64,000 nucleotides of DNA from a virus, in UHGV virus genome UHGV-1579991; one strand, given 5' to 3'. The position numbers were made by a program, and so were the translations under genes. The notes under the pieces are model-generated. The model was not told where the DNA came from. It was given only the letters and a program-made list of their open reading frames with translations, and searched no databases. The stretch's first letter is position 1. Each line of letters begins with the position of its first letter. This document shows positions 6,771-49,427 of the stretch, in pieces.

Positions 6771-6838
6771 TTTGTGGCACATCATCACAAAACAAGCCAG
6801 CAGAATTGTCTGCTGGCTTGTTTTGTGATGATGTGCTG

Positions 6839-7669: not shown

Positions 7670-8124
7670 TACAGATTTGATTTGTATGTTTCACAGCGTT
7701 TCCAATCTGTTGCAGCTTTCAGACCCTTCAAGTATTCTACATACATTGGATGTTCCCATGCAGGGTCATCAGTTACAGCAACATAGCCTTTGCTATGCTT
7801 GTCTTTGTCAATAAGCATCTCTGCATATTTTGGCGCAAGCAGTCGTTTGTTTGCAGCCCAAGCAAAATGACATTTGATAAAGTGTCGCGTAATTCTTGTG
7901 TATGCCGCTTTGACAGACTTTAGCATATCAGGGTCTGCAATAACATCTGCCAAATTCTGTGGCGCTGCTGCAATGAAAACTGCTTCGCAGTCTTTATGCT
8001 TTGCAGCTATTTGCTGCAATAAGTCTTTATGTGAATTGAGATGCAGAATTGTCGAACAAATGACTACAATGTCTGTTGCAGGTTCAATTCGTTTTGCTTG
8101 TTCTTTAAGAGATGGTTGTTCCAT
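7669..8124 (-). CDS. Hypothetical protein, 151 aa
   Basis: ORF in minus-strand gene array. Confidence 0.45.
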   Translation of the reverse strand: MEQPSLKEQAKRIEPATDIVVICSTILHLNSHKDLLQQIAAKHKDCEAVFIAAAPQNLADVIADPDMLKSVKAAYTRITRHFIKCHFAWAANKRLLAPKYAEMLIDKDKHSKGYVAVTDDPAWEHPMYVEYLKGLKAATDWKRCETYKSNL

Positions 8125-8130
8125 GTTGTG

Positions 8131-8385
8131 TCAGATTTTGATATGTCGTAGCAAAATTTTATGCAAATTCAACAATGATTGCGCTGCATATGCTGGATTT
8201 GGTTGAAGCTCTTTGCAGTTGTCGCATTTCAATGACTGCTCAGTTATTTGAGCATCTGTGTCAATGTTAATTGCAGTTTGACAAACTATGCATTGCCATT
8301 TAAGCGTATGCGTATGTAAGTTGTCTACGAACAATGTAGAGCCAAACTTATCTTGCCAGTCTTCTGCGCATTTTGGATGAAACAT
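8131..8385 (-). CDS. Hypothetical small Cys-rich protein (possible zinc ribbon)
   Basis: CxxC pairs: WQCIVCQ ... CDNCKE. Confidence 0.4.
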   Translation of the reverse strand: MFHPKCAEDWQDKFGSTLFVDNLHTHTLKWQCIVCQTAINIDTDAQITEQSLKCDNCKELQPNPAYAAQSLLNLHKILLRHIKI

Positions 8386-8389
8386 ATTG

Positions 8390-9397
8390 TTATGCGTTGT
8401 GAGCCCAGTTCAGCCAAACGTCATCTATTGACTGTGTAGTGTATTCACAATCATACAAGAAATTTACAAGAGCATCATAATTGCGTCTGCCCCACAATTT
8501 GTGCTTCAAACTGCCGATTTCTTCGTCTTTCTTGTAATTGTTGTAGATTCGTTCAAGCATTGCTGAAGAGCCTGCTTTTGTGTCATATTCTGCCTCAAAC
8601 AAACAGCCACAACTTGCTTTCTTTACAATTATGCGGTCATACATTGACACTACTGCTCTCAAAATGCTTTTTGACTGCAATCGTAACACATCAAGTTTAT
8701 TGCATTGAGACTCCCATTTTTTGTACAATGTGTTGAATGATGGATTGTCAAGCAGCTTGTCTGCAATTGCGTATGCAAACGACATTGCATGCCAATCATC
8801 TGTTCTGAAGTCCTCTGTGTTATGCTTATTGTAATATGCGCCAGTCGGTGCACAACCAATAAATGCTTCAAGTTGTCCAGCGTCATTTCGCAATATACGC
8901 AATGAATGCTTATTAAAGAATGACACCCATATGCGATTATGCGCAACTATCACAGAATACTTGTTTTCACATTTTGCTGCAGCATCGCTTATTGAACGAC
9001 AATCAATCTGCTTGCAAATTGATGTTATGAATGCTGCAAACTCTTCATGCTTCTTGAGCTTGTTTTGCGTGACGTCATATAGATGCAACAAACCATTGAC
9101 AACAGAGTCAAGCTTAGCTTCATCAGACTCAAAACTACCAAATGTTTCAAAGACTCGCATCTCTTTGTCAACAAGCATTTCTACGATTGCGTCAATATCT
9201 TTGCTAAGCAGTGTTTTGGGTTCTAACGTTGCATGCATAAATGTCAATTGAAGCAGCGCATTCGCAGTTTGTTCAGACAGCACGTCATTTGCGCGCGCAA
9301 TGTCGATTGCAGCTTTAAGTTCTGTTCGTTTGACTTCAAAATATCGTTGCAGCTGTAGTTTAAGTTGCTGAGAATAGACATTATTTGGTCTGAGCAT
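8390..9397 (-). CDS. Hypothetical protein, 335 aa
   Basis: Long ORF, no recognisable motif. Confidence 0.5.
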   Translation of the reverse strand: MLRPNNVYSQQLKLQLQRYFEVKRTELKAAIDIARANDVLSEQTANALLQLTFMHATLEPKTLLSKDIDAIVEMLVDKEMRVFETFGSFESDEAKLDSVVNGLLHLYDVTQNKLKKHEEFAAFITSICKQIDCRSISDAAAKCENKYSVIVAHNRIWVSFFNKHSLRILRNDAGQLEAFIGCAPTGAYYNKHNTEDFRTDDWHAMSFAYAIADKLLDNPSFNTLYKKWESQCNKLDVLRLQSKSILRAVVSMYDRIIVKKASCGCLFEAEYDTKAGSSAMLERIYNNYKKDEEIGSLKHKLWGRRNYDALVNFLYDCEYTTQSIDDVWLNWAHNA

Positions 9398-9500
9398 ATT
9401 TGGGATGGACTCTTACGTTTATTTAAGAATAAAGTACCACAAGTTGTCAAGTTTTGCTAACTTTGACGACTTGTGGTACGTCTGTTTTATGCATGCACTG

Positions 9501-9869
9501 TTATTTGATTGCGCGTTCAAACATTCTGCAGCACCAGTCTTTATATGCTGGATTGCCCTTAACATCTGCTCGGAATGCACAGTTGATAAGAGTCTTCTCT
9601 TCATCAACAAAGCATGCATAACGACAGTTTGCACAGCAACGAGCATCTTCTTGCTTAGTACAGAATGCTGCACATGTCATGTCATCTTCTGTGTTGCGAA
9701 TTGTTTTTGTTGGCGTGTATTCATAAGTGCACTGACAAATGCCATTATGTTCACGATGAAAGAAGCAATTTTTGCAAACATGCGCAACTTCTTCAACTGG
9801 TGCTGATGCTGCATATGTTTGTTCTTGCTCTACTGCAGACTGTGCAGCAGCTTTAGTCTTTTTTGCCAT
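9501..9869 (-). CDS. Hypothetical Cys-rich protein (start at MAKKTKAAAQ; the longer ORF N-terminus is translation of a tandem repeat)
   Basis: ATG at 9869-9867; many Cys (CKNCFF, CQCTYEY, CCANCRYAC). Confidence 0.45.
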   Translation of the reverse strand: MAKKTKAAAQSAVEQEQTYAASAPVEEVAHVCKNCFFHREHNGICQCTYEYTPTKTIRNTEDDMTCAAFCTKQEDARCCANCRYACFVDEEKTLINCAFRADVKGNPAYKDWCCRMFERAIK

Positions 9870-9894
9870 TGTATCAAATGTTTGTATTTGTAAG

Positions 9895-9970
9895 TTGTTT
9901 TGATGCAAAATGCAAAACAATATAAAATTGTTTTGATGCAAAATGCAAAACAATATAAAATTGTTTTGAT
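9895..9970. repeat. Tandem direct repeat, 33-bp unit x 2.3 copies
   Basis: ttgttttgatgcaaaatgcaaaacaatataaaa at 9895-9927 and identically at 9928-9960, partial third copy 9961-9970; intergenic, immediately downstream of ligase stop. Confidence 0.9.
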
Positions 9971-9972
9971 AT

Positions 9973-11877
9973 CTACAAAGATTTGAACAATTCCTCGTAT
10001 GTTACAATTTTCTTGCCTTTTGCAAGTGCTGCTTTCATTTTGTTCGACAGCTTGTTGACATCATTTGTGACAACATAGTCACATGCATCAATGTTTGCAC
10101 CGACATCTTCAAGCTTACCATTTGCTGCATCAATAAATGCACCTTTTGTTGCCCAAGTAGGCTTAGGCGAGCCTGTCATGACAACCTTGATTGTGTTAGC
10201 ATGCGCAGATGCTTCTTTATGCATTTCATTGAACATCACGAAGCATTGTGGAAAGCGCTTGAGTAATCTTTGTATGACATTCAACTTTATGAGCCTGTCA
10301 ATTGGCTCCATGCTCAAGCCCTTAAAGTCATACTGGCAATTGCTAAAGTACGCAGACAACTGATATGCAGCTTTACCACCGAGACCAGGAATCTGCATGC
10401 ATTCAATGAAATGCGACAAGTGAATGCTACTGAAGCGTTCACGTAAGCCTGCAATGACTGTACGGTCATTTTTGCTGTTTGTGTCAAACTGCAGCAGCTC
10501 AAACAGTCGTTCATTGTCAACTTCTTGCACAATGCAGAACAAGTCTTCAATTGTGGGCGCATCAGAGAATGTCAACATGACATCAAGATTGTCTTGTGCA
10601 ATAAGCAATGCTTCACAAATTTTCGTAGCATAAACCCAGCCAAGCCCATCAATATTAAGCTTGCAAACGCCTTTGATAAACCTCGTGCATCTTGCAAATT
10701 CCTCAGGCATCATCAAGTGAATGCCATCGACATATGCATGTACAGGAATGTCAGCTTTGCTGCTATCACCAGGTTCAATACATTCTTGAATGTCTGGAAT
10801 AATGTCACCGCCCTTTTCAATACGAACAAGAGCGCCTGGCCAAATACCATTTGCATGCAAAAAGCCATAGTGAAATGCTGAAGCTGCTTTTACTGTAGTG
10901 CCATCAAGCTCAACAGGCTCAAGTTCAACTCTCGGAAAAAGCTCACCATTGATTCGCTGACGCCAATCAATTCGAGTCACTCGAGTTACAGCAGACATTG
11001 CGTCAAGCTTCAATGCAACCATGTTTGCATATTCTGCTGCATTTGCAAACTGCTGCTCAATCCACAAGTCATCTGCAAAAGGCTTGACTACAATGCCATC
11101 AATGCGATATTTGAATTCTGAACGCCCATTGGCAATTTTTGTGCAAGTTTCTGCAAACTCATTGTAATCAGTGACTTCAAAGACTTCTGCAATGAATTCT
11201 GCAGGCCAGCCAACTTTAGCAAGAGCATCTGCAGGATTGGTTTGCTCATATGTTTTGCCATCAAGTGTGTCAGTCAGCATGTATGCCATAGGGTCAATGT
11301 CTTCCATGCCACACATGTCTAATGACTTCACAAATGCTGCAGCAGTATTGCGCTCATTTTTGTATTTGACAGAGCCATCAGCATTGAAATGATATTTTTG
11401 TGCAAAAATGTCTTTTGCAATGACAGCCTCAAAGCGAATTTGATATGGCTGTTCTGCTGCAGCAAGCTGCATCGGCACTTTGCCTGCTACAACAAATTTG
11501 CGCGTGACATCATAGCCCGTATAGCCATCACCACGAGTAACAACTTTTAGCAATCTGCCATCAGTGTCGTAATGTGCTTCACAGCCCATGCCATCATACT
11601 TGTGCATAAGCAGCATTTCATGACCAACAATGTTGCACACAGTATCATGCAACGCAGTTGTAAACTGTGACTTTGTATGAATTGCAGCAAGACTCAATGC
11701 AGGTGTAAGATGCTTAACTTCTTGTTTATTTGACTCTTCAAAGCGAATCTTATGTTTAATGTCGCTATTTGCAAGAAGCTGCTGTTCAAGAGCATCAAAT
11801 GCCTCATCAGACATTATCGGATTGCCTGCATAATACGCAGCTATTGCGTCATGGTACATATTGAGTGTATCAGTCAT
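9973..11877 (-). CDS. ligA: NAD-dependent DNA ligase (LigA-like)
   Basis: Adenylation motif KYDGMG (KxDG), TRGDGYTGYDVT motif, C-terminal BRCT-like region; 634 aa. Confidence 0.8.
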   Translation of the reverse strand: MTDTLNMYHDAIAAYYAGNPIMSDEAFDALEQQLLANSDIKHKIRFEESNKQEVKHLTPALSLAAIHTKSQFTTALHDTVCNIVGHEMLLMHKYDGMGCEAHYDTDGRLLKVVTRGDGYTGYDVTRKFVVAGKVPMQLAAAEQPYQIRFEAVIAKDIFAQKYHFNADGSVKYKNERNTAAAFVKSLDMCGMEDIDPMAYMLTDTLDGKTYEQTNPADALAKVGWPAEFIAEVFEVTDYNEFAETCTKIANGRSEFKYRIDGIVVKPFADDLWIEQQFANAAEYANMVALKLDAMSAVTRVTRIDWRQRINGELFPRVELEPVELDGTTVKAASAFHYGFLHANGIWPGALVRIEKGGDIIPDIQECIEPGDSSKADIPVHAYVDGIHLMMPEEFARCTRFIKGVCKLNIDGLGWVYATKICEALLIAQDNLDVMLTFSDAPTIEDLFCIVQEVDNERLFELLQFDTNSKNDRTVIAGLRERFSSIHLSHFIECMQIPGLGGKAAYQLSAYFSNCQYDFKGLSMEPIDRLIKLNVIQRLLKRFPQCFVMFNEMHKEASAHANTIKVVMTGSPKPTWATKGAFIDAANGKLEDVGANIDACDYVVTNDVNKLSNKMKAALAKGKKIVTYEELFKSL

Positions 11878-12109
11878 CGTCTTCTTCTGTTAAATCATTT
11901 TCTTCTACCAATGTGTCAGTTGTGTCAATATCTGGAAATTCGTAGTTGTTAGGTCGTTTTACGCTAATGTCATGCAAATGCTTCATAAGTTCATCACGAG
12001 TCATAAAGAACGTGTTATTATTGTCATTTGCATACATTAAAGACTTTGCTGTAGATTCATATGTAGTTGCCGTGCACATATACAACGGCAAGCCATTCAG
12101 TGTTGGCAT
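11870..12109 (-). CDS. Hypothetical acidic protein, 79 aa
   Basis: ORF overlapping ligase start by 8 nt. Confidence 0.35.
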   Translation of the reverse strand: MPTLNGLPLYMCTATTYESTAKSLMYANDNNNTFFMTRDELMKHLHDISVKRPNNYEFPDIDTTDTLVEENDLTEEDDD

Positions 12110-12110
12110 T

Positions 12111-12554
12111 TCATTGCAATTGTTTTTGATACGCTATCAATTCATTAAGCAGTTCATCTGCATGACATTGAACAAGTAGTTGCCACGTTTTTGAATCAAT
12201 GTCTTCAGTTTGCATGTACAAGTCTACTACTCGTTTGTCAAACTTGTTTATTGCATCTATAGTAGCATTACTTACAGGCTTGTCAACTTTCTTACCGCTG
12301 ATAAAAGACCATTTTGGCTGTCTTGCATTACTAAGTTCTCTATGATAAGCATTCATAACTTGTGTCATGTCCATACCGAGTTTGTTGAATGCTTGAGCAA
12401 TCTGCGGAAAGGCTATGGCAACATTGCGATTTGTCATGAATGCATTGTCTGCTTTTTGTTTTGCAGTCAACTTATCATAATCGCTATCACGAACATACAG
12501 CAACTCCTTAAATTTGAAGAAGTCTACTTTTTGTGTGATGAATTGTTCTGCCAT
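12111..12554 (-). CDS. Hypothetical protein, 147 aa
   Basis: ORF preceded by promoter-like motif. Confidence 0.45.
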   Translation of the reverse strand: MAEQFITQKVDFFKFKELLYVRDSDYDKLTAKQKADNAFMTNRNVAIAFPQIAQAFNKLGMDMTQVMNAYHRELSNARQPKWSFISGKKVDKPVSNATIDAINKFDKRVVDLYMQTEDIDSKTWQLLVQCHADELLNELIAYQKQLQ

Positions 12555-12560
12555 TGAAGT

Positions 12561-12610
12561 TTATTGTTATATAGTGATATAATACAACAAAAATCTCAAA
12601 TTTGCACACT
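12561..12610 (-). promoter_or_regulatory. Promoter-like conserved motif (GTGCAAA box ... TTGTTGTATTATAT -10-like)
   Basis: Minus-strand reading GTGTGCAAATTTGAGATTTTTGTTGTATTATATCACTATATAAC upstream of 12111-12554. Confidence 0.5.
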
Positions 12611-13118
12611 ACGATGGCTTTTTGTCATCAAATTTGAAAATGACTGGCATTGCAGAATCAGGCTTTATGTCGCCTTTGTTAACTGCGTCATTTAAGCATT
12701 CTACAATCTTTTTGCCAAGGTCTTTTACTTCTGCAGGAATTTTCTCGTATGGCACATTTGATGACAGTTGAAGCTCATTTTGCTGATGCTCGTTTTGTTG
12801 AAGCTCTGCTGTTTCAGATAGCTGCTTGTCAATTCGAGTAAACATCAATTCATCACGTGCATCAATAAATTCTTGAATTGCTTGCAGCTGCTCAATGCTG
12901 CATATGACAACACATTGCAATAAGTTTGATGCATCATAGAATGACATGCCAATAATTCGTGTAGTGTCACAATCGAATGCGCAATTGATGTCTTTCAATG
13001 TGTCCATAAATGACATTGATAAGTCTTCAATGCCTGATACATCTGCAATGCTGAACACAAATTGTGTGCTGCCAACGCATTCATGCTCATCTGAAAATAT
13101 GAGCTTATCTACTGTCAT
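12609..13118 (-). CDS. Hypothetical protein, 169 aa
   Basis: ORF. Confidence 0.45.
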   Translation of the reverse strand: MTVDKLIFSDEHECVGSTQFVFSIADVSGIEDLSMSFMDTLKDINCAFDCDTTRIIGMSFYDASNLLQCVVICSIEQLQAIQEFIDARDELMFTRIDKQLSETAELQQNEHQQNELQLSSNVPYEKIPAEVKDLGKKIVECLNDAVNKGDIKPDSAMPVIFKFDDKKPS

Positions 13119-28134: not shown

Positions 28135-28202
28135 ATGTAGAGATTTTTGTAGTTTGTATCAATTGCATTCTATATCAATTGCATCTTGTATCAAATACAT
28201 TA

Positions 28203-28250
28203 TATTGATATATGATAATTGTACTACAAAAATCCCAAATTTGCACACTT
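28203..28250 (-). promoter_or_regulatory. Promoter-like conserved motif
   Basis: Minus-strand GTGTGCAAATTTGGGATTTTTGTAGTACAATTATCATATATC. Confidence 0.55.
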
Positions 28251-28291
28251 TGATAATCAAAAGTGCAAACAAAATTCAAAGTTATATTGTA

Positions 28292-28323
28292 CATCATAAA
28301 GTGCAAATTTGCACTTTATGATG
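28292..28323. promoter_or_regulatory. Perfect 32-bp palindrome (putative operator)
   Basis: CATCATAAAGTGCAAATTTGCACTTTATGATG, no spacer, centred on the GTGCAAA/TTTGCAC box. Confidence 0.5.
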
Positions 28324-28883: not shown

Positions 28884-29260
28884 GCAAATATATTTTTGTT
28901 TGTATATGTACATAAAAGAGCAAGTTCTCCACATTGAGAACTTGCTCAGCTGACCTGTTACCAGGTGAAAGCGTGGTGCAGCACCTTGTGCTGCAATGGC
29001 TATGCTGCCATCGCCATAACGGGCTGAGCATTGCCCAGCATCATTACACGACCAGCTGCATTAAGCGTACGCTTTGCTTTGTTGAAAAATTTGCCAGTTA
29101 TCTGGTATCTGCACATCTATTCAAGCGACCTACTATGCAATCAAATGCCTGTCGAGCCCAATGTTTGAGCAGTTGTTTGTCAGATGCTCAGCTGACTGCA
29201 GTCTTTCTGAGTGTATCAAGTTCAGCGATTCTGCATCTTTGCTAAATGGCAATGGTTCAG

Positions 29261-29341
29261 GTGGACTCGCCGAGAATCGAACTCGGGTCTTACATAGCGC
29301 ATCCTTGACTTGGTCCTGTAAACAGGGTTGTCAACATGCAT
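29261..29341 (-). other. tRNA-like element: clean T-arm and 3' acceptor strand, no matching 5' acceptor strand found
   Basis: Minus-strand ccgag-TTCGATT-ctcgg then cgagtcc-a; upstream sequence does not supply GGACTCG-type partner. Confidence 0.25.
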
Positions 29342-29412
29342 TGCAATACGACAGGACTCGAACCTGCGACCTCGGATTGGACGTCCGCGCTCTTACCGCT
29401 GAGCTACGTATT
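29342..29412 (-). tRNA. tRNA, isotype ambiguous (anticodon region reads CGTCCAAT: UCC/Gly with G33, or CCA/Trp with poor stem)
   Basis: Acceptor GAATACG/CGTATTG (1:72 mismatch), D-arm GCTC-AGCGGTAA-GAGC, T-arm GCAGG-TTCGAGT-CCTGT. Confidence 0.55.
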
Positions 29413-29506
29413 CTTATCAATTGACTGCACTGCAATGCAATCAATCGTGCCAATGATATTTGACACGCATAATTGCAGTTATGCGTAACAATTCAAATGT
29501 CATTTG

Positions 29507-29579
29507 AGCCAACTGCAGGAATCGAACCTGTAACCTGCTGAGTACAAATCAGCTGCTCTACCAATTGAGCTAAGTTGGC
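29507..29579 (-). tRNA. tRNA-Thr (anticodon TGT)
   Basis: Acceptor GCCAACT/AGTTGGC, D-arm GCTC-AATTGGTA-GAGC, anticodon stem GCTGA/TCAGC, loop TTTGTAC, T-loop TTCGATT. Confidence 0.75.
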
Positions 29580-29661
29580 ATAAAGTCGTTGGGCCATTGC
29601 AACCCAAACCTATCATCTTTGCCTAACCAAAGATGCAAGCGCTCTCTTACACCACGACTTG

Positions 29662-29733
29662 TAGCCGAACTTGGAGTCGAACCAAGCTTTCGAGAATGAA
29701 AATCTCGCGTCCTAACCGATAGACGAAACGGCC
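29662..29733 (-). tRNA. tRNA-Glu-like (anticodon TTC), acceptor stem irregular
   Basis: Anticodon stem CGAGA/TCTCG, loop TTTTCAT, T-arm CTTGG-TTCGACT-CCAAG; acceptor GGCCGTT vs TTCGGCT has mismatches at 6:67 and 7:66. Confidence 0.5.
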
Positions 29734-29916
29734 AAGAGCAGTTCAAGTCTGCAGCATTGAACTGCGGAAACAATGCCTGTACGGGCAACCAATTGTGCAG
29801 ATACAGCGACATTGCAAAATCACACCGAACCAAGTTTGTGGCTCTTCTGTCTCATAAAAACAAGTAATCATTACACTTGGCACCAATGATTTTGATGTAA
29901 AAATCGGTGTGTTACG

Positions 29917-30001
29917 CGGAGAGTAAGGGATTCGAACCCCTGGTACGTTGCCGTACAGTGGTTTTCAAGACCACCGCCATCGACCGCTCGGCCAACTCTC
30001 C
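29917..30001 (-). tRNA. tRNA-Ser (anticodon TGA), long variable arm
   Basis: Acceptor GGAGAGT/ACTCTCC, anticodon stem GTGGT/ACCAC, loop CTTGAAA, variable arm GTACG-GCAA-CGTAC, T-loop TTCGAAT. Confidence 0.75.
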
Positions 30002-30194
30002 ATAAAACATTGCATAAGCATTCTTATCTCTTGATGAGGCCAAGTAGCTAATTTGGCAAGTTTGTTATATCTATCGTGACTGTTGCAGTTTGTTGTCACT
30101 CAATACACAAAACTTTCGAACATTCATTGACAACACTGCAATATCGCTTTTTAAGCTCAGCCATCAATGTATTTATGCAATGTATAACAATTCG

Positions 30195-30276
30195 TAGCCA
30201 AACCGGGACTTGAACCCAGACTCCTAATGGAACAACATTTTGAGTGTTGCGTGTCTACCAATTCCACCATTTGGCC
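30195..30276 (-). tRNA. tRNA-Leu (anticodon CAA), long variable arm
   Basis: Acceptor GGCCAAA/TTTGGCT, anticodon stem CAACA/TGTTG, loop CTCAAAA, T-loop TTCAAGT. Confidence 0.7.
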
Positions 30277-30373
30277 ATTTGCAAATGCAAGCTGTTTCAC
30301 AACTGTTTGCATTTGCATTTGCATTGTTTAACACACTAAAATATGATTCATCTAATCAAAAACCAGAGAATTG

Positions 30374-30446
30374 TCGAGAATGTGCGATTTGAACGCCAAT
30401 TATACGTCCCAAACGTATCGTGTTACCGGATTACACTACATTCTCG
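30374..30446 (-). tRNA. tRNA-Pro (anticodon TGG)
   Basis: Acceptor CGAGAAT/ATTCTCG, anticodon stem ATACG/CGTAT, loop TTTGGGA, T-loop TTCAAAT (T-stem imperfect). Confidence 0.65.
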
Positions 30447-30453
30447 TTAATTG

Positions 30454-30524
30454 TTGAACTGTCTGGACTCGAACCAGAAATATATCATCCAAAGTGATAT
30501 GTGTTACCATTACACCACAGCTCA
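30454..30524 (-). tRNA. tRNA-Gln (anticodon TTG)
   Basis: Acceptor TGAGCTG/CAGTTCA, D-stem GTGT/ACAC, anticodon stem TATCA/TGATA, loop CTTTGGA, T-arm TCTGG-TTCGAGT-CCAGA. Confidence 0.75.
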
Positions 30525-41949: not shown

Positions 41950-44900
41950 TCAATTACATGCTGAATGTCCGCAGTTGGTGCATCGAACACAGCCGTCAAA
42001 CTTGACCATGTCACCACCGCATTCAGGACACTTTGCATACATCTTTGAGCCATCTTGAATGTGTAGTTTCAATGCGCGACCAATTGCTTTGCAGAATGTG
42101 CCAACAGATGCAAAGCTTTTTGCAGTTTGGTCGACAATTTCACCAAGGTCGATGCCATTGCGAAGCATCGTTGAGTACAGTCGAGTAATTGTTTGCTGCT
42201 CATCTGAACCAAGACGTTCTGAGATATTGTCATAGTGTTGCAAGAATGACAAATTATCACCAAGCTTGTAGTGCTTCTTATCAGTCTTTGTGATTGTCGT
42301 TTGTTCAATGCCTTGCAACTTGTCAAATTCGTCTTTGTCAAGTTCAAATGCAAAGATTTCATAGGGTCGACCATCATCACAACCTACAAGAATACACCAC
42401 TTACGCTTATACACTGATACACAATACACTGCAGCAGGCAATACAGGTTTTCGTTTTGAGCGATGACCAGACTGCAAGACATGCGACTTATCCTTAGACT
42501 GCTTATCATCTTTTACGAGAACACCTGCACGTGAGCCATCTCGATAAATTGTGCAACCCTTGCAGCCAGATTTCCATGCAGTCAGATAAATTTCACGAAC
42601 AAGCTCTTTTGTTGCAGAGTTTGGAATATTGACTGTTACAGAAATTGATGAGTCAATGTACTTTTGCAACGCGCCTTGCAGTTTAACCTTGCCAATCCAG
42701 TCAACATCTTCAGTAGTTGCCTTATAGTATGGTGATTGAACAAGCAATTCATCAATGACTGCTTGCGAAGCATTTGACAACCAAGCTTTGATACGAGACA
42801 TTTCTGCTTCTGACCATTCAATGCCAGTATCTTTGACAAGGGTGAATTTGTCATCACCAAGCTGCACTCGTTTGCAAATCCACTGCATCAATGGGTAGTG
42901 AACTACAGCGTATTCAATGAACTTGTCACCAGTAGTCTCATCAATGAAGTTGATGTCTGCTTCATTATCAACTGCAGTAGGCTTTCGACGACGTTTGTGC
43001 AGTGGCATAAAAACAGGTTCAATGCCAGAAGTTGTCTGAGTCATCAAAGCTGTGGTGCCAGTTGGCGCAATTGTTGTTGTGTTGATGTTTCGACGACCAA
43101 ATTGTTGATAAGTTGTGATGTGCTCATCATCAATCAGTTCAGATAACATACGCTGAATGAACTTTGACTGCACATCTGTGTCATAGTCGAATATTGCAAA
43201 TGAGCCACGAATCTCTGCCAAGTCAATTGACGCTTCATAAGTCGCCTTTACAAGCCATTGTTGCATAGTGACTGCGAAGTCAATTGACTCTTGTGAACCA
43301 TAGCGCAAGCCAAGCATTGCCATTGCATCGCCAAGTGCAAGAAAGCCCATGCCATATCGACGAGTATTTGTCAATTTGTCATAGACTTTATGCCACAAGT
43401 CAAGCTCAGTTTTCTTAATGTCAAATGATTCTTTGTCTGATTCAACCTTTGCAATGATTCGTTGAACTGCTTCAATTTCAAGCTGCACAAGGTCATCCAT
43501 GATGACTGCACAGTCATATGTATCTTTGTAGAATGCTTCAAAGTCAAATGATGCATCAGCAGTCCAAGGATTAAGCACATATGCAGTCAAATTGCGATGT
43601 GATAAAATGCAGCTTGCATATGCTGCAAGAGGCTGTTCACCGCACTGCCTGTTGTTTACAAATACTTGCATATGTCTGTCATTTGTATCATTGACAGCGT
43701 CAAATGACCCTACAAAAAAGTTGTGATAATCATCTACAGTGCCATTATACACATCTTCTACACCATCAAGTTCAACAGTGTGTACCCTATGATTGTAGTA
43801 ATCTGCAAACTGCTTAAACTTTCTGTATGACGCATGAATAGCAGCGTCAACATTGTTAGATTTGCATTCATTTGCAAATTCTTCATAATTTGGTCGTTTG
43901 CCAAGTTTTTGCTTTGCTGCAGTATATACAAGCACTTGTTCTTTAGACCATTTTGCTTGCTGAGCTGCGTGGCCGCATTCGGCAGAACAATATGCAACTT
44001 CTCTATAAAACCAGTGCGCCCAAAATTCAGAGCCGCAATGTTCGCAAATACGTTTAACATACACTTGTTTGTCAACAAATTTAGTGTCATAGCCCATATT
44101 GCGAACTTTAATTGCTGTTGCTATGCATCTGCTATCAATGCCAACTAAATCAGGATATTTAACATTAGCGCGCGTTGCACAATGACTTAAAAATGCATCA
44201 ATAGAGCCAAATGTTTCTACTAATTTATTGTACCTGTAGCCAGACCATGCAACAGTATTATTGCCTGGCGCATAGCGCATATAGTATTCTAATTCTTTGC
44301 GACTAAGGCCTCTTCCAACTTTTGCAGTGCATTGCGTAACATAGTCTACAATTGATTGCACAGTTGTATCAATATCATATCTGCCATTACGTTCACCAGA
44401 AGTAGATGCACTCATTTTAGCAGAATACTGTGCAAAACGTTCTGCATTTGCTTTAATTTTGTATATTGGATTGTTAGTGCCTCTACGTTCAAGTGCATGT
44501 AATGCATCATGCTCTTTTTTGCTTAGTACTTGTAAGTTATTTGGGTCATTGTTTAATGAATTGCCATCGATATGATGCACTACTGTGTGTGTAGCATCAA
44601 ACTGTTCAGCATGACAGTATTCTGCTATTAAACGATGCTCAAACTTATATACACCATTATTCAACACTGCATAATATGGTGCAGATTTGCTATTTGTTTG
44701 ATAGCTAAGCACTTCATCAAATGAACATTGTTGTCTTGCAATAATTGCTAAGCTATCACCATGCTGTAATTGTCGTGCTTCTTTGTATGTGCCATCTGTT
44801 AACTTAAACTTGTGATTACCTGTGCAACGAATAACATCACCAGAATCAAGTGTAACTTTGTATATTTGCACATTTGAGCCTGTTTTGCGTGGATGCCGCA

Positions 44901-45936
44901 TTTTGCGTACAACTACATTATTGTTGTCATCATAGCAATACACATTAACATCATCGCCAATATCTGCAAGTTCACGTATTGTCATTGTTTGTCTGCCATC
45001 AGCAAGCATAACTTTAGTGCTGCCAACAATGCATGGATTTGTTGAGCGCTCTTCATACATTTTACCGTATGCTTTCGAGTTCGACTCTTCCATAATGCGG
45101 TCCCAAAAGAACACGCCGGGTTCTGCAGATGCCCATACATTGTCAACAATTTTGTCAAATAATGCTTTTGCATCTGATGTCTTATGCAGCTCTTGGCCAT
45201 CAGAGCCACGCCAAATATGTTCAAACTGCTGTTCTGCAAGCACTGCACGCATAAATGCATCAGTAAGCTTGATGGAAATGTTTGCACCTGTGATTTTTGT
45301 CAAGTCTTTTTTTGCGTCAATGAACTTATCTGCATCAGGATGCTCAATTGACAATGACAACATCAATGCGCCACGCCTGCCATTTTGTGCAACTTCTTTT
45401 GTCGATGTTGAAAAGCGTTCCATAAATGACACGACACCAGACGTCGTAATAGCACTGTTATGTACTTCTACGCCTTCTGGGCGAATATGCGACAAATCAT
45501 GGCCAACACCACCACGACGTTTCATCAACTGAACTTGCTCTTCATCTGTTTTGAAGATGCCGCCATATGAATCTGCATCATTGCCTATTACATAGCAATT
45601 TGACATTGATGTGTAACCGCCAAGACCGATACCAGCCATTGGAGAACCACCAAGTACAAATCGCTTAAATGGCTCAAGCAAATATGCAAGTCGCTCTTTT
45701 GACAATACACGTTTGCCTGTCTGTTCTTCAAATTGTGATTCTATACGGTCAAATTCATTGACCCAGCGCTCATGCATATCAGACAATGAGTGTTCATACA
45801 AATTGTCTTTGTCATGATGCAAGTATTTTGACATGCATATGTCAGCAGCCATTGAGTCGCCCGTAAATTCATGCGTCAGTGTAGTGTGCACTTCAGCATA
45901 TTCAGGCGACCCAATTTGAATGGGACGTTTTGTCAT
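41950..45936 (-). CDS. nrdJ: Ribonucleotide reductase, class II (adenosylcobalamin-dependent, NrdJ-like), interrupted in-frame by an intein
   Basis: Start at MTKRP (ATG 45936-45934); extein motifs STNP...CGEQPL (reconstitutes NPCGE), TIYRDGSR, C-terminal CPECGG...CTNCG zinc ribbon; total ORF 1328 aa is far longer than a typical RNR. Confidence 0.75.
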   Translation of the reverse strand: MTKRPIQIGSPEYAEVHTTLTHEFTGDSMAADICMSKYLHHDKDNLYEHSLSDMHERWVNEFDRIESQFEEQTGKRVLSKERLAYLLEPFKRFVLGGSPMAGIGLGGYTSMSNCYVIGNDADSYGGIFKTDEEQVQLMKRRGGVGHDLSHIRPEGVEVHNSAITTSGVVSFMERFSTSTKEVAQNGRRGALMLSLSIEHPDADKFIDAKKDLTKITGANISIKLTDAFMRAVLAEQQFEHIWRGSDGQELHKTSDAKALFDKIVDNVWASAEPGVFFWDRIMEESNSKAYGKMYEERSTNPCIVGSTKVMLADGRQTMTIRELADIGDDVNVYCYDDNNNVVVRKMRHPRKTGSNVQIYKVTLDSGDVIRCTGNHKFKLTDGTYKEARQLQHGDSLAIIARQQCSFDEVLSYQTNSKSAPYYAVLNNGVYKFEHRLIAEYCHAEQFDATHTVVHHIDGNSLNNDPNNLQVLSKKEHDALHALERRGTNNPIYKIKANAERFAQYSAKMSASTSGERNGRYDIDTTVQSIVDYVTQCTAKVGRGLSRKELEYYMRYAPGNNTVAWSGYRYNKLVETFGSIDAFLSHCATRANVKYPDLVGIDSRCIATAIKVRNMGYDTKFVDKQVYVKRICEHCGSEFWAHWFYREVAYCSAECGHAAQQAKWSKEQVLVYTAAKQKLGKRPNYEEFANECKSNNVDAAIHASYRKFKQFADYYNHRVHTVELDGVEDVYNGTVDDYHNFFVGSFDAVNDTNDRHMQVFVNNRQCGEQPLAAYASCILSHRNLTAYVLNPWTADASFDFEAFYKDTYDCAVIMDDLVQLEIEAVQRIIAKVESDKESFDIKKTELDLWHKVYDKLTNTRRYGMGFLALGDAMAMLGLRYGSQESIDFAVTMQQWLVKATYEASIDLAEIRGSFAIFDYDTDVQSKFIQRMLSELIDDEHITTYQQFGRRNINTTTIAPTGTTALMTQTTSGIEPVFMPLHKRRRKPTAVDNEADINFIDETTGDKFIEYAVVHYPLMQWICKRVQLGDDKFTLVKDTGIEWSEAEMSRIKAWLSNASQAVIDELLVQSPYYKATTEDVDWIGKVKLQGALQKYIDSSISVTVNIPNSATKELVREIYLTAWKSGCKGCTIYRDGSRAGVLVKDDKQSKDKSHVLQSGHRSKRKPVLPAAVYCVSVYKRKWCILVGCDDGRPYEIFAFELDKDEFDKLQGIEQTTITKTDKKHYKLGDNLSFLQHYDNISERLGSDEQQTITRLYSTMLRNGIDLGEIVDQTAKSFASVGTFCKAIGRALKLHIQDGSKMYAKCPECGGDMVKFDGCVRCTNCGHSACN
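43645..45033 (-). mobile_element. Intein (about 463 aa) with Hint blocks and an HNH endonuclease domain, apparently ending in Gln
   Basis: Begins at Cys after STNP (CIVGSTKVMLADGRQTMTIRELADIGDD, block A); block B GNHKFKLTDG; HNH motif VVHHIDGNSLNNDPNNLQVLSKKEHDALH; zinc-finger-like CEHCGSEF...CSAECGH; block F VYNGTVDDYHNFFVG; ends ...VFVNNRQ immediately before CGEQ. Confidence 0.65.
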
Positions 45937-45973
45937 TGTAACAGTGCATTTAAGTGTTTTAACAGTTTTATGT

Positions 45974-46007
45974 ATAAATTGTACAACAATGGGCAAAATT
46001 TTGCATC
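45974..46007 (-). promoter_or_regulatory. Promoter-like conserved motif containing TTGTACAA upstream of RNR
   Basis: Minus-strand GATGCAAAATTTTGCCCATTGTTGTACAATTTATAC. Confidence 0.5.
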
Positions 46008-49400: not shown

Positions 49401-49427
49401 TGTACACATTGTACACATTGTACACAC
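49401..49427. repeat. Tandem 9-bp repeat x3
   Basis: tgtacacat tgtacacat tgtacacac directly upstream of holin-like gene start. Confidence 0.85.

What the first reader, a model, noticed from the sequence alone, without database searches (positions are those of the whole stretch)
9895..9970. Perfect 33-bp tandem duplication in the intergenic region after the ligase gene
Two identical copies plus a 10-bp partial third copy of ttgttttgatgcaaaatgcaaaacaatataaaa. The unit contains GCATTTTGCA-like dyads related to the operator box and lies just upstream of the Cys-rich gene 9501-9869, so it may be a duplicated regulator binding site; copy number could vary between isolates.
Basis: seen in the sequence. 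Interest (0 to 1): 0.4.

Follow-up and report, generated by a model that had tools for sequence, protein, structure and literature searches.

The report
Variable hairpin tandem repeat, phage spacer
A perfect 33-bp tandem repeat between the DNA ligase gene and a small cysteine-rich gene of an uncultivated gut phage is real and varies from 0 to 3 copies among close relatives, so it is a dispensable slippage-prone spacer rather than a required regulatory site.

Summary
Positions 9895-9970 hold 2.3 perfect copies of a 33-bp unit, the highest-scoring tandem repeat in the window. It fills the 103-bp spacer between an NAD-dependent DNA ligase gene and a lineage-restricted Cys-rich ORF, both on the minus strand.

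Thirty-four independent metagenome contigs of the same gut phage lineage gave 14 spacer haplotypes with 0, 1, 2 or 3 copies. Zero-copy alleles occur in three unrelated backgrounds. More distant relatives keep the gene order but have no repeat.

- There is no promoter to regulate. The phage's own 16-member promoter family does not match the array.
- The unit occurs nowhere else in the genome.
- Its TGCAAA/TTTGCA words are about 7-fold over-represented genome-wide.

Each unit encodes a weak AU-rich stem-loop (-5 to -7 kcal/mol), far weaker than the window's real terminators. Each unit is bounded by a 10-bp direct repeat that explains slippage. The array lies in the loop of a predicted long-range stem joining the ligase stop codon to the downstream start codon.

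Verdict: an ordinary variable-number tandem repeat, with at most a modest effect on expression.

The parts
9895..9970 (-). Tandem array: 2 full 33-bp units (9895-9927, 9928-9960) plus a 10-nt partial unit (9961-9970). Read on the transcribed minus strand it is CAAAACAA-[TTTTATA-TTGTTTTG-CATTTTGCAT-CAAAACAA]x2.
   Evidence: TRF; sequence; the repeat finder
9961..9970 (-). Bounding direct repeat ATCAAAACAA on the minus strand, also at 9928-9937 and 9895-9904. This 10-bp microhomology flanks every unit and is the proposed substrate for slippage.
   Evidence: Sequence; D2 family. The zero-copy allele L038 keeps exactly one CAAAACAA.
9946..9968 (-). Unit stem-loop 1 on the mRNA strand: CAAAACAA(U)-loop-(A)UUGUUUUG.
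   Evidence: Inverted repeat; MFE and centroid folds; dG -6.8 kcal/mol
9913..9935 (-). Unit stem-loop 2, identical to stem-loop 1.
9974..9991 (-). 5' arm of the predicted long-range stem. It lies in the last codons of the ligase ORF and runs up to the TAG stop codon (9973-9975).
   Evidence: (I13)
9868..9886 (-). 3' arm of the predicted long-range stem. It is the conserved leader UACAAACAUUUGAUACAAU and includes the A and U of the Cys-gene AUG.
   Evidence: It is invariant in all 14 haplotypes except at the mismatched position.
9973..11877 (-). NAD-dependent DNA ligase gene, upstream cistron.
9501..9869 (-). Cys-rich ORFan of 122 aa, downstream cistron. It has 11 invariant Cys and 2 invariant His.
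9434..9479 (-). Strong hairpin followed by UUUAUUCUU: an intrinsic-terminator-like end of the transcription unit after the Cys-rich gene.
   Evidence: -28.1 kcal/mol for the folded 96-nt region, z -5.66
12565..12610 (-). Nearest upstream member of the phage promoter family, the probable start of the transcription unit orf147-orf79-ligase-Cys gene.
   Evidence: PWM score 43.0

Best explanation
The array is a dispensable, fast-evolving variable-number tandem repeat in the intercistronic spacer of a ligase / Cys-rich-gene transcription unit.

Each 33-bp unit is bounded by the 10-bp direct repeat ATCAAAACAA. Slipped-strand mispairing or unequal recombination between these repeats adds or removes whole units. 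This mechanism is inferred.

On the mRNA each unit folds into its own weak AU-rich stem-loop, CAAAACAA-loop-UUGUUUUG (predicted). The array sits in the loop of a predicted long-range stem that pairs the last codons of the ligase ORF with the leader and the first two bases of the AUG of the Cys-rich gene. Because the units fold on themselves, they can be gained or lost without disrupting that stem. Their effect on expression of the downstream gene is probably small: some change in spacer length and structure, and perhaps in translational coupling or mRNA decay.

It is not a promoter, not an efficient terminator, not an origin and not a required operator.
For: Shown:
- The repeat is perfect, with 2.3 copies.
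- Fourteen spacer haplotypes were found in 34 related contigs: 0 copies in 10 contigs (3 different haplotypes), 1 copy in 2, 2 copies in 21, 3 copies in 1.
- Flanks are 87-100% identical to the window.
- In an NJ tree of the flanks, each 0-copy haplotype groups with a 1- or 2-copy haplotype. This implies at least 3 independent changes.
- Zero-copy allele L038 keeps a single CAAAACAA, the product expected from slippage between the bounding repeats.
- In the commonest haplotype (L011-L023) the two copies differ at 3 of 33 positions, whereas in the window they are identical. This indicates recent re-duplication or homogenisation.
- Relatives whose Cys-rich protein is 62-65% identical keep the order ligase then Cys gene, with a 48-nt spacer and no repeat.
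- The unit is not dispersed.

Predicted:
- The unit hairpins appear in both the MFE and centroid folds, at dG -5.0 to -6.8 kcal/mol.
- The most variable segment is the hairpin loop (TTTTATA, TTTTACA, TATA, CATA), while the arms are mostly kept.
- The long-range stem is predicted in every haplotype, including the 0-copy ones.
- Its duplex energy of -13.1 kcal/mol is the strongest of 20 same-strand gene pairs in the window.
- An analogous stem with a different sequence (GAUUAUAAGA / UCUUACAAUC) is predicted in the distant relative.
Against: - No expression data exist, so the size of any effect is unknown.
- Shuffle z-scores for the long-range stem are modest: -1.6 to -2.2 in close relatives and -0.8 in the distant one. 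Ranking first of 20 gene pairs is only p of about 0.05.
- There is no compensatory change in the unit arms. The L011-group change TTG to TAG breaks a pair. Only one change (L007, C to U) is compatible with G-U pairing on the mRNA strand.
- The constant 10-nt spacing of the other arm pairing (TTGTTTTG-N10-CAAAACAA) would fit a protein site equally well.
- Two copies is the commonest state across diverged lineages, which could reflect some selection for keeping the array.
Confidence: 0.6

Rival explanations
1. Duplicated binding site (operator) for a phage or host DNA-binding protein. Each unit would offer a 26-bp site made of 8-bp perfect inverted arms with a fixed 10-bp centre carrying two TGCA/TTTGCA words, and copy number would set occupancy.
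For: - Perfect 8-bp inverted arms with a constant 10-bp spacing occur in nearly all copies; only L005 has 11.
- The variable segment lies between the sites, not within them.
- The plus strand carries ATGCAAA, identical to the -35 word of some promoters of the phage family.
- An ORFan with conserved Cys and His lies immediately downstream.
Against: - There is no promoter within or next to the array.
- The site occurs nowhere else in 64 kb, nor elsewhere in two ~175-kb relatives.
- It is absent from three haplotypes and from distant relatives that keep both genes.
- The period varies from 29 to 34 bp, so helical phasing is not kept.
- TGCAAA/TTTGCA are about 7-fold enriched genome-wide, mostly from nnT-GCA codon usage.
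- The Cys-rich protein has no family match and no usable structural model.
Confidence: 0.13
2. Weak intrinsic terminator or attenuator modules. Each hairpin plus the following CAUUUUGCAU would cause partial termination or pausing, so that copy number sets read-through from the ligase gene into the Cys-rich gene.
For: - Each hairpin is followed by a U-rich stretch, CAUUUUGCAU.
- Real terminators in this window are typically followed by TTTTGCA.
- The bidirectional terminator at 6788-6825 has the same outer arms CAAAACAA...TTGTTTTG around a GC-rich core.
Against: - The stem has only 2 G-C pairs and dG of -5 to -6.8 kcal/mol, against -22 to -47 kcal/mol for terminators in the same window.
- The terminator scan reports none in the spacer.
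- A strong terminator-like hairpin already follows the Cys gene, so that gene needs read-through from upstream.
Confidence: 0.12
3. Internal promoter created at unit junctions. On the minus strand this would be TTGCAT-N18-TATATT, or TTTG-N18-TTGTTTTG for a Bacteroidota-type sigma factor. On the plus strand it would be TTGATG-N17-TAAAAT, giving an RNA antisense to the ligase gene.
For: - The sigma-70-type scan finds TTGATG-17-TAAAAT (9 of 12 matches) twice on the plus strand.
- ATATTG is kept in most loop variants.
Against: - The number of sigma-70-like sites in the region is at chance level, 11 found against 10.1 expected.
- The minus-strand candidate matches only 3 of 6 in the -35 hexamer (my count from the sequence).
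- No TTTG-N17-22-TAnnTTTG match falls in the spacer.
- The phage's own promoter matrix does not match.
- Loop variants change the spacing by 3 nt, and TACATT replaces TATATT in some alleles.
- Zero-copy alleles exist.
Confidence: 0.07
4. Assembly artefact or coding repeat. Either the duplication is a mis-assembly, or the 33-nt (11-codon) units encode an N-terminal extension of the Cys-rich protein starting at the TTG at 9953.
For: - The unit length is a multiple of 3, and the frame is open from 9953.
- Some gene callers extended the ORF to 135-159 aa.
Against: - The array was recovered independently in many assemblies.
- +1 indels in L005 and L039 break the frame.
- The MAKK start is conserved in relatives that lack any upstream extension.
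- Zero-copy alleles exist.
Confidence: 0.02

Closest known systems
Variable-number tandem repeats generated by slipped-strand mispairing (bacterial and phage minisatellites)
   Same: Head-to-tail identical units, a bounding direct repeat, copy-number polymorphism among near-identical genomes, and homogenised copies in some lineages but diverged copies in others.
   Different: Each unit is itself a hairpin. The array lies between two co-transcribed phage genes, inside a predicted long-range stop-to-start stem. No phase-variable phenotype is known.
PeSL cassettes (promoter-early stem-loops) of T4-type phages (Arbiol et al. 2010, PMC2839356, read)
   Same: Small intergenic stem-loop elements found at plastic sites next to ORFans in large myovirus genomes. 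The window does contain PeSL-like hairpin-plus-promoter cassettes elsewhere.
   Different: The repeat unit has no promoter part, its stem is AU-rich rather than G/C-rich, it is not dispersed, and it is tandem rather than flanking a gene cassette.
Rho-independent terminators and intercistronic attenuator hairpins
   Same: A stem-loop followed by a U-rich tract on the transcribed strand, located between two cistrons.
   Different: The stem is far too weak (-5 to -6.8 kcal/mol, 2 G-C pairs) compared with the terminators of the same genome.
Long-range RNA stems that couple translation of adjacent cistrons, as in RNA coliphage coat/replicase coupling (comparison from general knowledge, not tested here)
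   Same: The end of the upstream ORF is predicted to pair with the initiation region of the downstream ORF, so that terminating ribosomes would open the start site.
   Different: This rests only on predicted folds and a rank of 1 in 20. The spacer is long (33-139 nt) and hypervariable, and there is no experimental support.

Membership tests
Variable-number tandem repeat (slippage type) | Head-to-tail copies of one unit with high identity | tested here: met
   2.3 copies, 100% identity, TRF score 152
Variable-number tandem repeat (slippage type) | Copy number differs among closely related genomes | tested here: met
   0, 1, 2 or 3 copies in 34 contigs and 14 haplotypes. Flanks are 87-100% identical. 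The changes are not monophyletic.
Variable-number tandem repeat (slippage type) | Heterogeneity of copy number within one population, seen in reads | not testable with these tools
   No access to raw reads
Intrinsic (rho-independent) terminator | Stable G+C-rich stem immediately followed by a U tract | tested here: not met
   No terminator-like site in the spacer. dG is -5 to -6.8 kcal/mol against -22 to -47 for the window's terminators.
Promoter family of this phage (TGCAAA-N17-TAcAAT with TGTnG extension) | Match to the position weight matrix built from 15 instances | tested here: not met
   Best scores in the array region are -1.1 (minus strand) and 6.5 (plus strand), against 25.7-47.5 for the 16 real sites
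Sigma-70-type or Bacteroidota-type host promoter | Two consensus elements at correct spacing on the strand of the downstream gene | tested here: not met
   There are no minus-strand sigma-70-like sites in the spacer, and the plus-strand 9/12 sites are at chance frequency. No TTTG-N17-22-TAnnTTTG match in the spacer.
Operator / regulator binding site | Dyad symmetry | tested here: met
   TTGTTTTG-N10-CAAAACAA occurs twice against 0.01 expected
Operator / regulator binding site | Overlaps or adjoins a promoter, recurs at other regulated loci, and is conserved with the regulated gene | tested here: not met
   No promoter. Unique in the genome. Absent from three haplotypes and from distant relatives.
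Operator / regulator binding site | A cognate protein binds it | not testable with these tools
   Needs EMSA or pull-down. The neighbouring Cys-rich protein has no family match and a poor model, pLDDT 43.
Iteron-type replication origin | Conserved, indispensable, phased direct repeats | tested here: not met
   Zero-copy alleles exist and the period varies from 29 to 34 bp
PeSL cassette | Strong early promoter joined to a stem-loop, dispersed in many copies | tested here: not met
   No promoter match and not dispersed. Definition taken from PMC2839356.
Known RNA family (Rfam) | Covariance-model match at the gathering score | tested here: not met
   The only sub-threshold match over the array is RefA9 at 22.1 bits against a gathering score of 49, E 0.99

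The most novel reading that the evidence does not exclude
The array could be a copy-number 'rheostat'. Self-folding hairpin modules in the loop of a long-range stem link the ligase stop codon to the start codon of a lineage-specific Cys-rich gene. Gain or loss of units by slippage would then tune translational coupling or mRNA stability, and so the dose of that protein, on very short evolutionary time scales in a gut jumbo-type phage.
Probability: 0.12. Interest if true: 0.45.

Novelty: new member of a known kind. Interest (0 to 1): 0.2.

Why it matters
On its own this matters little. It is a clean example of a hairpin-containing minisatellite that turns over quickly in an uncultivated gut phage related to the PAU / Chryseobacterium MA9V jumbo myoviruses.

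Practical uses:
- It could serve as a strain-typing marker for this phage lineage in metagenomes.
- Gene callers are misled by it: they extended the downstream ORF to 135-159 aa through the in-frame repeat.

If copy number did tune expression of the downstream ORFan, it would be a simple natural expression dial. Nothing here demonstrates that.

Tried and rejected
- **Close phage relatives.** Megablast of 8000-13000 against INPHARED phages gave no match. Protein-level searches gave only distant relatives: Chryseobacterium phages MA9V-1 and MA9V-2, and Sphingomonas phage PAU.
- **'Operator' word.** TGCAAAATGCA with 1 mismatch is not enriched.
- **T4-late-like boxes.** TATAAAAT and TATAAATA are at chance frequency.
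- **Rfam.** Nothing credible over the spacer. The tmRNA called by ARAGORN is not confirmed at the gathering threshold.
- **Cys-rich protein.** No Pfam or PHROG family. Only lineage-restricted homologues were found among 5.8 billion and 1.84 billion proteins. The AlphaFold model was unusable (pLDDT 43), so no fold search was run.
- **JGI metagenome scan.** It added only one locus.
- **GTDB genome scan with a 20-mer of the unit.** Six single matches, at about the number expected by chance. One was a 172-kb contig of a Rikenellaceae MAG, which I read and found to be unrelated sequence. No host clue came from this.
- **Low-stringency blastn of the unit against the window.** Only matches of 17 nt or less, consistent with the genome's word bias.
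- **Coding-repeat reading.** Rejected, see the rival explanations.
- **Covariation in the unit stems.** Too few arm substitutions to test. There were five variants: three substitutions (one G-U-compatible, one disruptive, one in the unpaired terminal arm) and two single-T insertions.

Full report
**1. The observation**

Tandem Repeats Finder reports one array at 9895-9970: period 33, 2.3 copies, 100% matches, no indels, score 152. This is the strongest of 54 rows in the window. The sequence, read directly, is TTGTTTTGATGCAAAATGCAAAACAATATAAAA twice, followed by TTGTTTTGAT. Long pieces of the unit, allowing up to 3 mismatches, occur only here, against 0.00 expected in shuffles.

**2. Context**

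Almost all genes in the window are on the minus strand.
- 9973-11877(-) is an NAD-dependent DNA ligase (PF01653, PF03120, PHROG 3869).
- 9501-9869(-) is a 122-aa Cys-rich ORF with no Pfam or PHROG match.
- Its homologues are confined to this phage lineage, both among 5.8 billion proteins and among 1.84 billion representatives searched with a profile.
- Eleven Cys and two His are invariant. The AlphaFold model is unusable (pLDDT 43).

The genome is a large phage. It has a T4-type large terminase, a gp23-like capsid protein, topoisomerase II subunits, a ribonucleotide reductase containing an intein, and seven tRNAs. Related contigs reach 175-176 kb and come from human gut metagenomes. The nearest cultured relatives are distant: Chryseobacterium phages MA9V-1 and MA9V-2 (terminase 40-49% identical), Sphingomonas phage PAU, and Tenacibaculum phages. 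By my reading, start codons lack Shine-Dalgarno sequences. That would fit a Bacteroidota host, but this is an inference.

**3. Anatomy on the transcribed strand**

Read on the minus strand, the 103-nt spacer is:

TAG-AT-AT-CAAAACAA-[TTTTATA-TTGTTTTG-CATTTTGCAT-CAAAACAA]x2-CTTACAAATACAAACATTTGATACA-ATG

- Arms CAAAACAA and TTGTTTTG are perfect complements. An arm can pair across the 7-nt segment or across the 10-nt segment.
- RNA folding of the mRNA strand puts one stem-loop per unit across the 7-nt segment, in both the MFE and centroid structures.
- Each stem-loop is worth only -5.0 to -6.8 kcal/mol. Terminator hairpins elsewhere in the window are worth -22 to -47 kcal/mol.
- Every unit is bounded by the direct repeat ATCAAAACAA.

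**4. Relatives**

I used three routes:
- exact-protein look-ups of the Cys-rich protein and its cluster members;
- an IMG/VR scan for the 26-mer core;
- a JGI metagenome scan.

Together they gave 34 distinct contigs with the ligase / Cys-gene junction. The spacer has 14 haplotypes of 33-139 nt.

| Copies | Contigs | Loci |
|---|---|---|
| 0 | 10 | L004, L028-L035, L038 (three different spacers) |
| 1 | 2 | L005, L036 |
| 2 | 21 | L002/L040, L003, L006, L007, L010, L011-L023, L037, L039 |
| 3 | 1 | L001 |

- Flanks are 87-100% identical to the window.
- In an NJ tree of 699 flanking nucleotides, each zero-copy haplotype groups with a one- or two-copy haplotype. Copy number therefore changed at least three times independently, although recombination could blur this tree.
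- L038 retains exactly one CAAAACAA, the product expected if slippage between the bounding repeats removed all units.
- In the commonest haplotype (13 contigs) the two copies differ at 3 of 33 positions, while in the window they are identical. This points to recent re-duplication or homogenisation.
- The segment that varies most, with alleles shared across lineages, is the 7-nt loop (TTTTATA, TTTTACA, TATA, CATA). Arm changes are singletons. One is G-U-compatible on the mRNA strand (L007), one breaks a pair (L011 group), and one lies in the terminal arm (L006).
- A second small repeat, ACAAAT, occurs once or twice just downstream of the array.
- Relatives whose Cys-rich protein is 62-65% identical keep the gene order, with a 48-nt spacer and no repeat.
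- The core of the unit occurs nowhere else in the two ~175-kb IMG/VR genomes or in the window.

The array is therefore real, lineage-specific, dispensable and highly dynamic.

**5. What it is not**

*Promoter.* Intergenic regions of the window contain a very regular promoter family, TGCAAA-N17-TAcAAT with a TGTnG extension.
- A weight matrix built from it finds 16 strong sites (25.7-47.5 bits), all on the minus strand. It scores only -1.1 and 6.5 in the array region.
- The generic sigma-70 scan finds nothing on the minus strand of the spacer. It finds two 9/12 sites on the plus strand, but at a density no higher than in shuffles.
- The Bacteroidota-type pattern TTTG-N17-22-TAnnTTTG is absent.

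Its words TGCAAA/TTTGCA occur 281 times in 64 kb, roughly 7-fold over expectation. This is a by-product of a 5-fold excess of TGCA that sits mainly in nnT-GCA codon phase. Sharing these words is not evidence of a common regulator.

*Terminator.* The scan finds none and the stems are too weak.

*Origin or iterons.* Zero-copy alleles and a period varying from 29 to 34 bp argue against this.

*Coding.* +1 indels (L005, L039) and the conserved MAKK start argue against an N-terminal extension. Gene callers nevertheless produced 135-159-aa versions.

*Known RNA family.* None.

**6. How it most likely works**

The nearest upstream promoter is at about 12565-12610. A strong hairpin followed by UUUAUUCUU lies after the Cys gene at 9434-9479 (z -5.66). 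I therefore infer one transcription unit: orf147, orf79, ligase, Cys gene.

In every haplotype, including those with zero copies, folding pairs the last codons of the ligase ORF (9974-9991) with the conserved leader and the first two bases of the AUG (9868-9886).
- This stop-region/start-region duplex (-13.1 kcal/mol) is the strongest of 20 same-strand gene pairs in the window.
- The only substitution seen in its 3' arm falls on the mismatched position.
- The distant relative has an analogous stem built from different sequence.
- Shuffle z-scores are modest (-0.8 to -2.2), so this stem is a reasonable hypothesis and not an established feature.

The array lies in the loop of this stem. Units that fold on themselves can be inserted or lost without preventing closure of the outer stem, which would explain why this spacer tolerates such turnover.

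My best explanation is a near-neutral slippage minisatellite of self-folding units. At most it has a modest effect on coupling or stability of the downstream cistron (confidence 0.6). The rivals are a protein-binding site (0.13), a weak attenuator (0.12), an internal promoter (0.07), and an artefact or coding repeat (0.02).

**7. Comparison and novelty**

The array belongs with slipped-strand VNTRs. The defining features I could test are met. It resembles PeSL cassettes of T4-type phages (PMC2839356) only in being a stem-loop element at a plastic site next to an ORFan. It lacks their promoter and their dispersal. It is a new member of a known kind. Interest is low (0.2). The regulatory interpretation was not supported.

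Noticed in passing
window, minus strand: 62076-62031, 60930-60885, 59768-59723, 57015-56970, 53691-53646, 51260-51215, 46911-46866, 46009-45964, 37728-37683, 35260-35215, 30609-30564, 28317-28272, 28249-28204, 26031-25986, 16949-16904, 12610-12565: A very regular 16-member promoter family, TGCAAA-N17-TAcAAT with a TGTnG extension and a downstream TATAnA element. All members are on the minus strand and share identical spacing. Many follow GC-rich hairpin terminators, giving PeSL-like terminator-plus-promoter cassettes. The -35 word is not TTGACA and does not fit the Bacteroidota TTTG/TAnnTTTG scheme, so which sigma factor or activator reads it is open.
   Followed up: partly
whole window: Extreme word biases. 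GATC occurs 3 times and CTAG twice in 64 kb (observed/expected 0.01). TGCA occurs 1149 times (5-fold excess, mostly in nnT-GCA codon phase). GG (0.42) and TA (0.56) dinucleotides are depleted. The GATC avoidance suggests strong restriction pressure or a modification system in the host.
   Followed up: partly
window 9868-9886 with 9974-9991: A predicted long-range stem pairs the end of the ligase ORF, up to the stop codon, with the leader and AUG of the Cys-rich gene. It is the strongest such duplex among 20 gene pairs, it is present in 0-copy haplotypes, and an analogous stem of different sequence is predicted in a distant relative. It may mediate translational coupling.
   Followed up: partly
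window 9876-9891 (minus strand CTTACAAATACAAAC): A second small VNTR. The hexamer ACAAAT occurs once in the window but twice in L001, L010, L036 and L037.
   Followed up: yes
window 9501-9869 (-): A Cys-rich ORFan (invariant C32, C35, H38, H41, C47, C66, C78, C79, C82, C86, C97, C113, C114). Homologues were found only in this phage lineage despite searches of billions of proteins. The pattern looks like a metal-binding or Fe-S protein, but there is no family match and the model is poor.
   Followed up: partly
window 41950-45996 (-): The ribonucleotide reductase large subunit is interrupted by an intein with an HNH endonuclease domain (Pfam PF02867, PF14890, PF13392).
   Followed up: no
window 28909-29351 (-): ARAGORN calls a permuted tmRNA next to the seven-tRNA cluster (29343-30524). 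Rfam at the gathering threshold confirms the seven tRNAs but no tmRNA, so the call is probably a false positive.
   Followed up: partly
window 6788-6825: The bidirectional terminator between the convergent terminase and DHFR genes has the same outer arms (CAAAACAA...TTGTTTTG) as the repeat unit, around a GC-rich core. This could be chance (A/T tracts flanking a terminator) or a hint that the unit derives from a degenerate terminator.
   Followed up: no
window 49401-49426 and 28154-28194: Other short intergenic tandem repeats: TGTACACAT x2.9 (perfect), and a 16-nt unit x2.6 just downstream of the tandem promoters at 28204-28317. Their variability in relatives was not checked.
   Followed up: no
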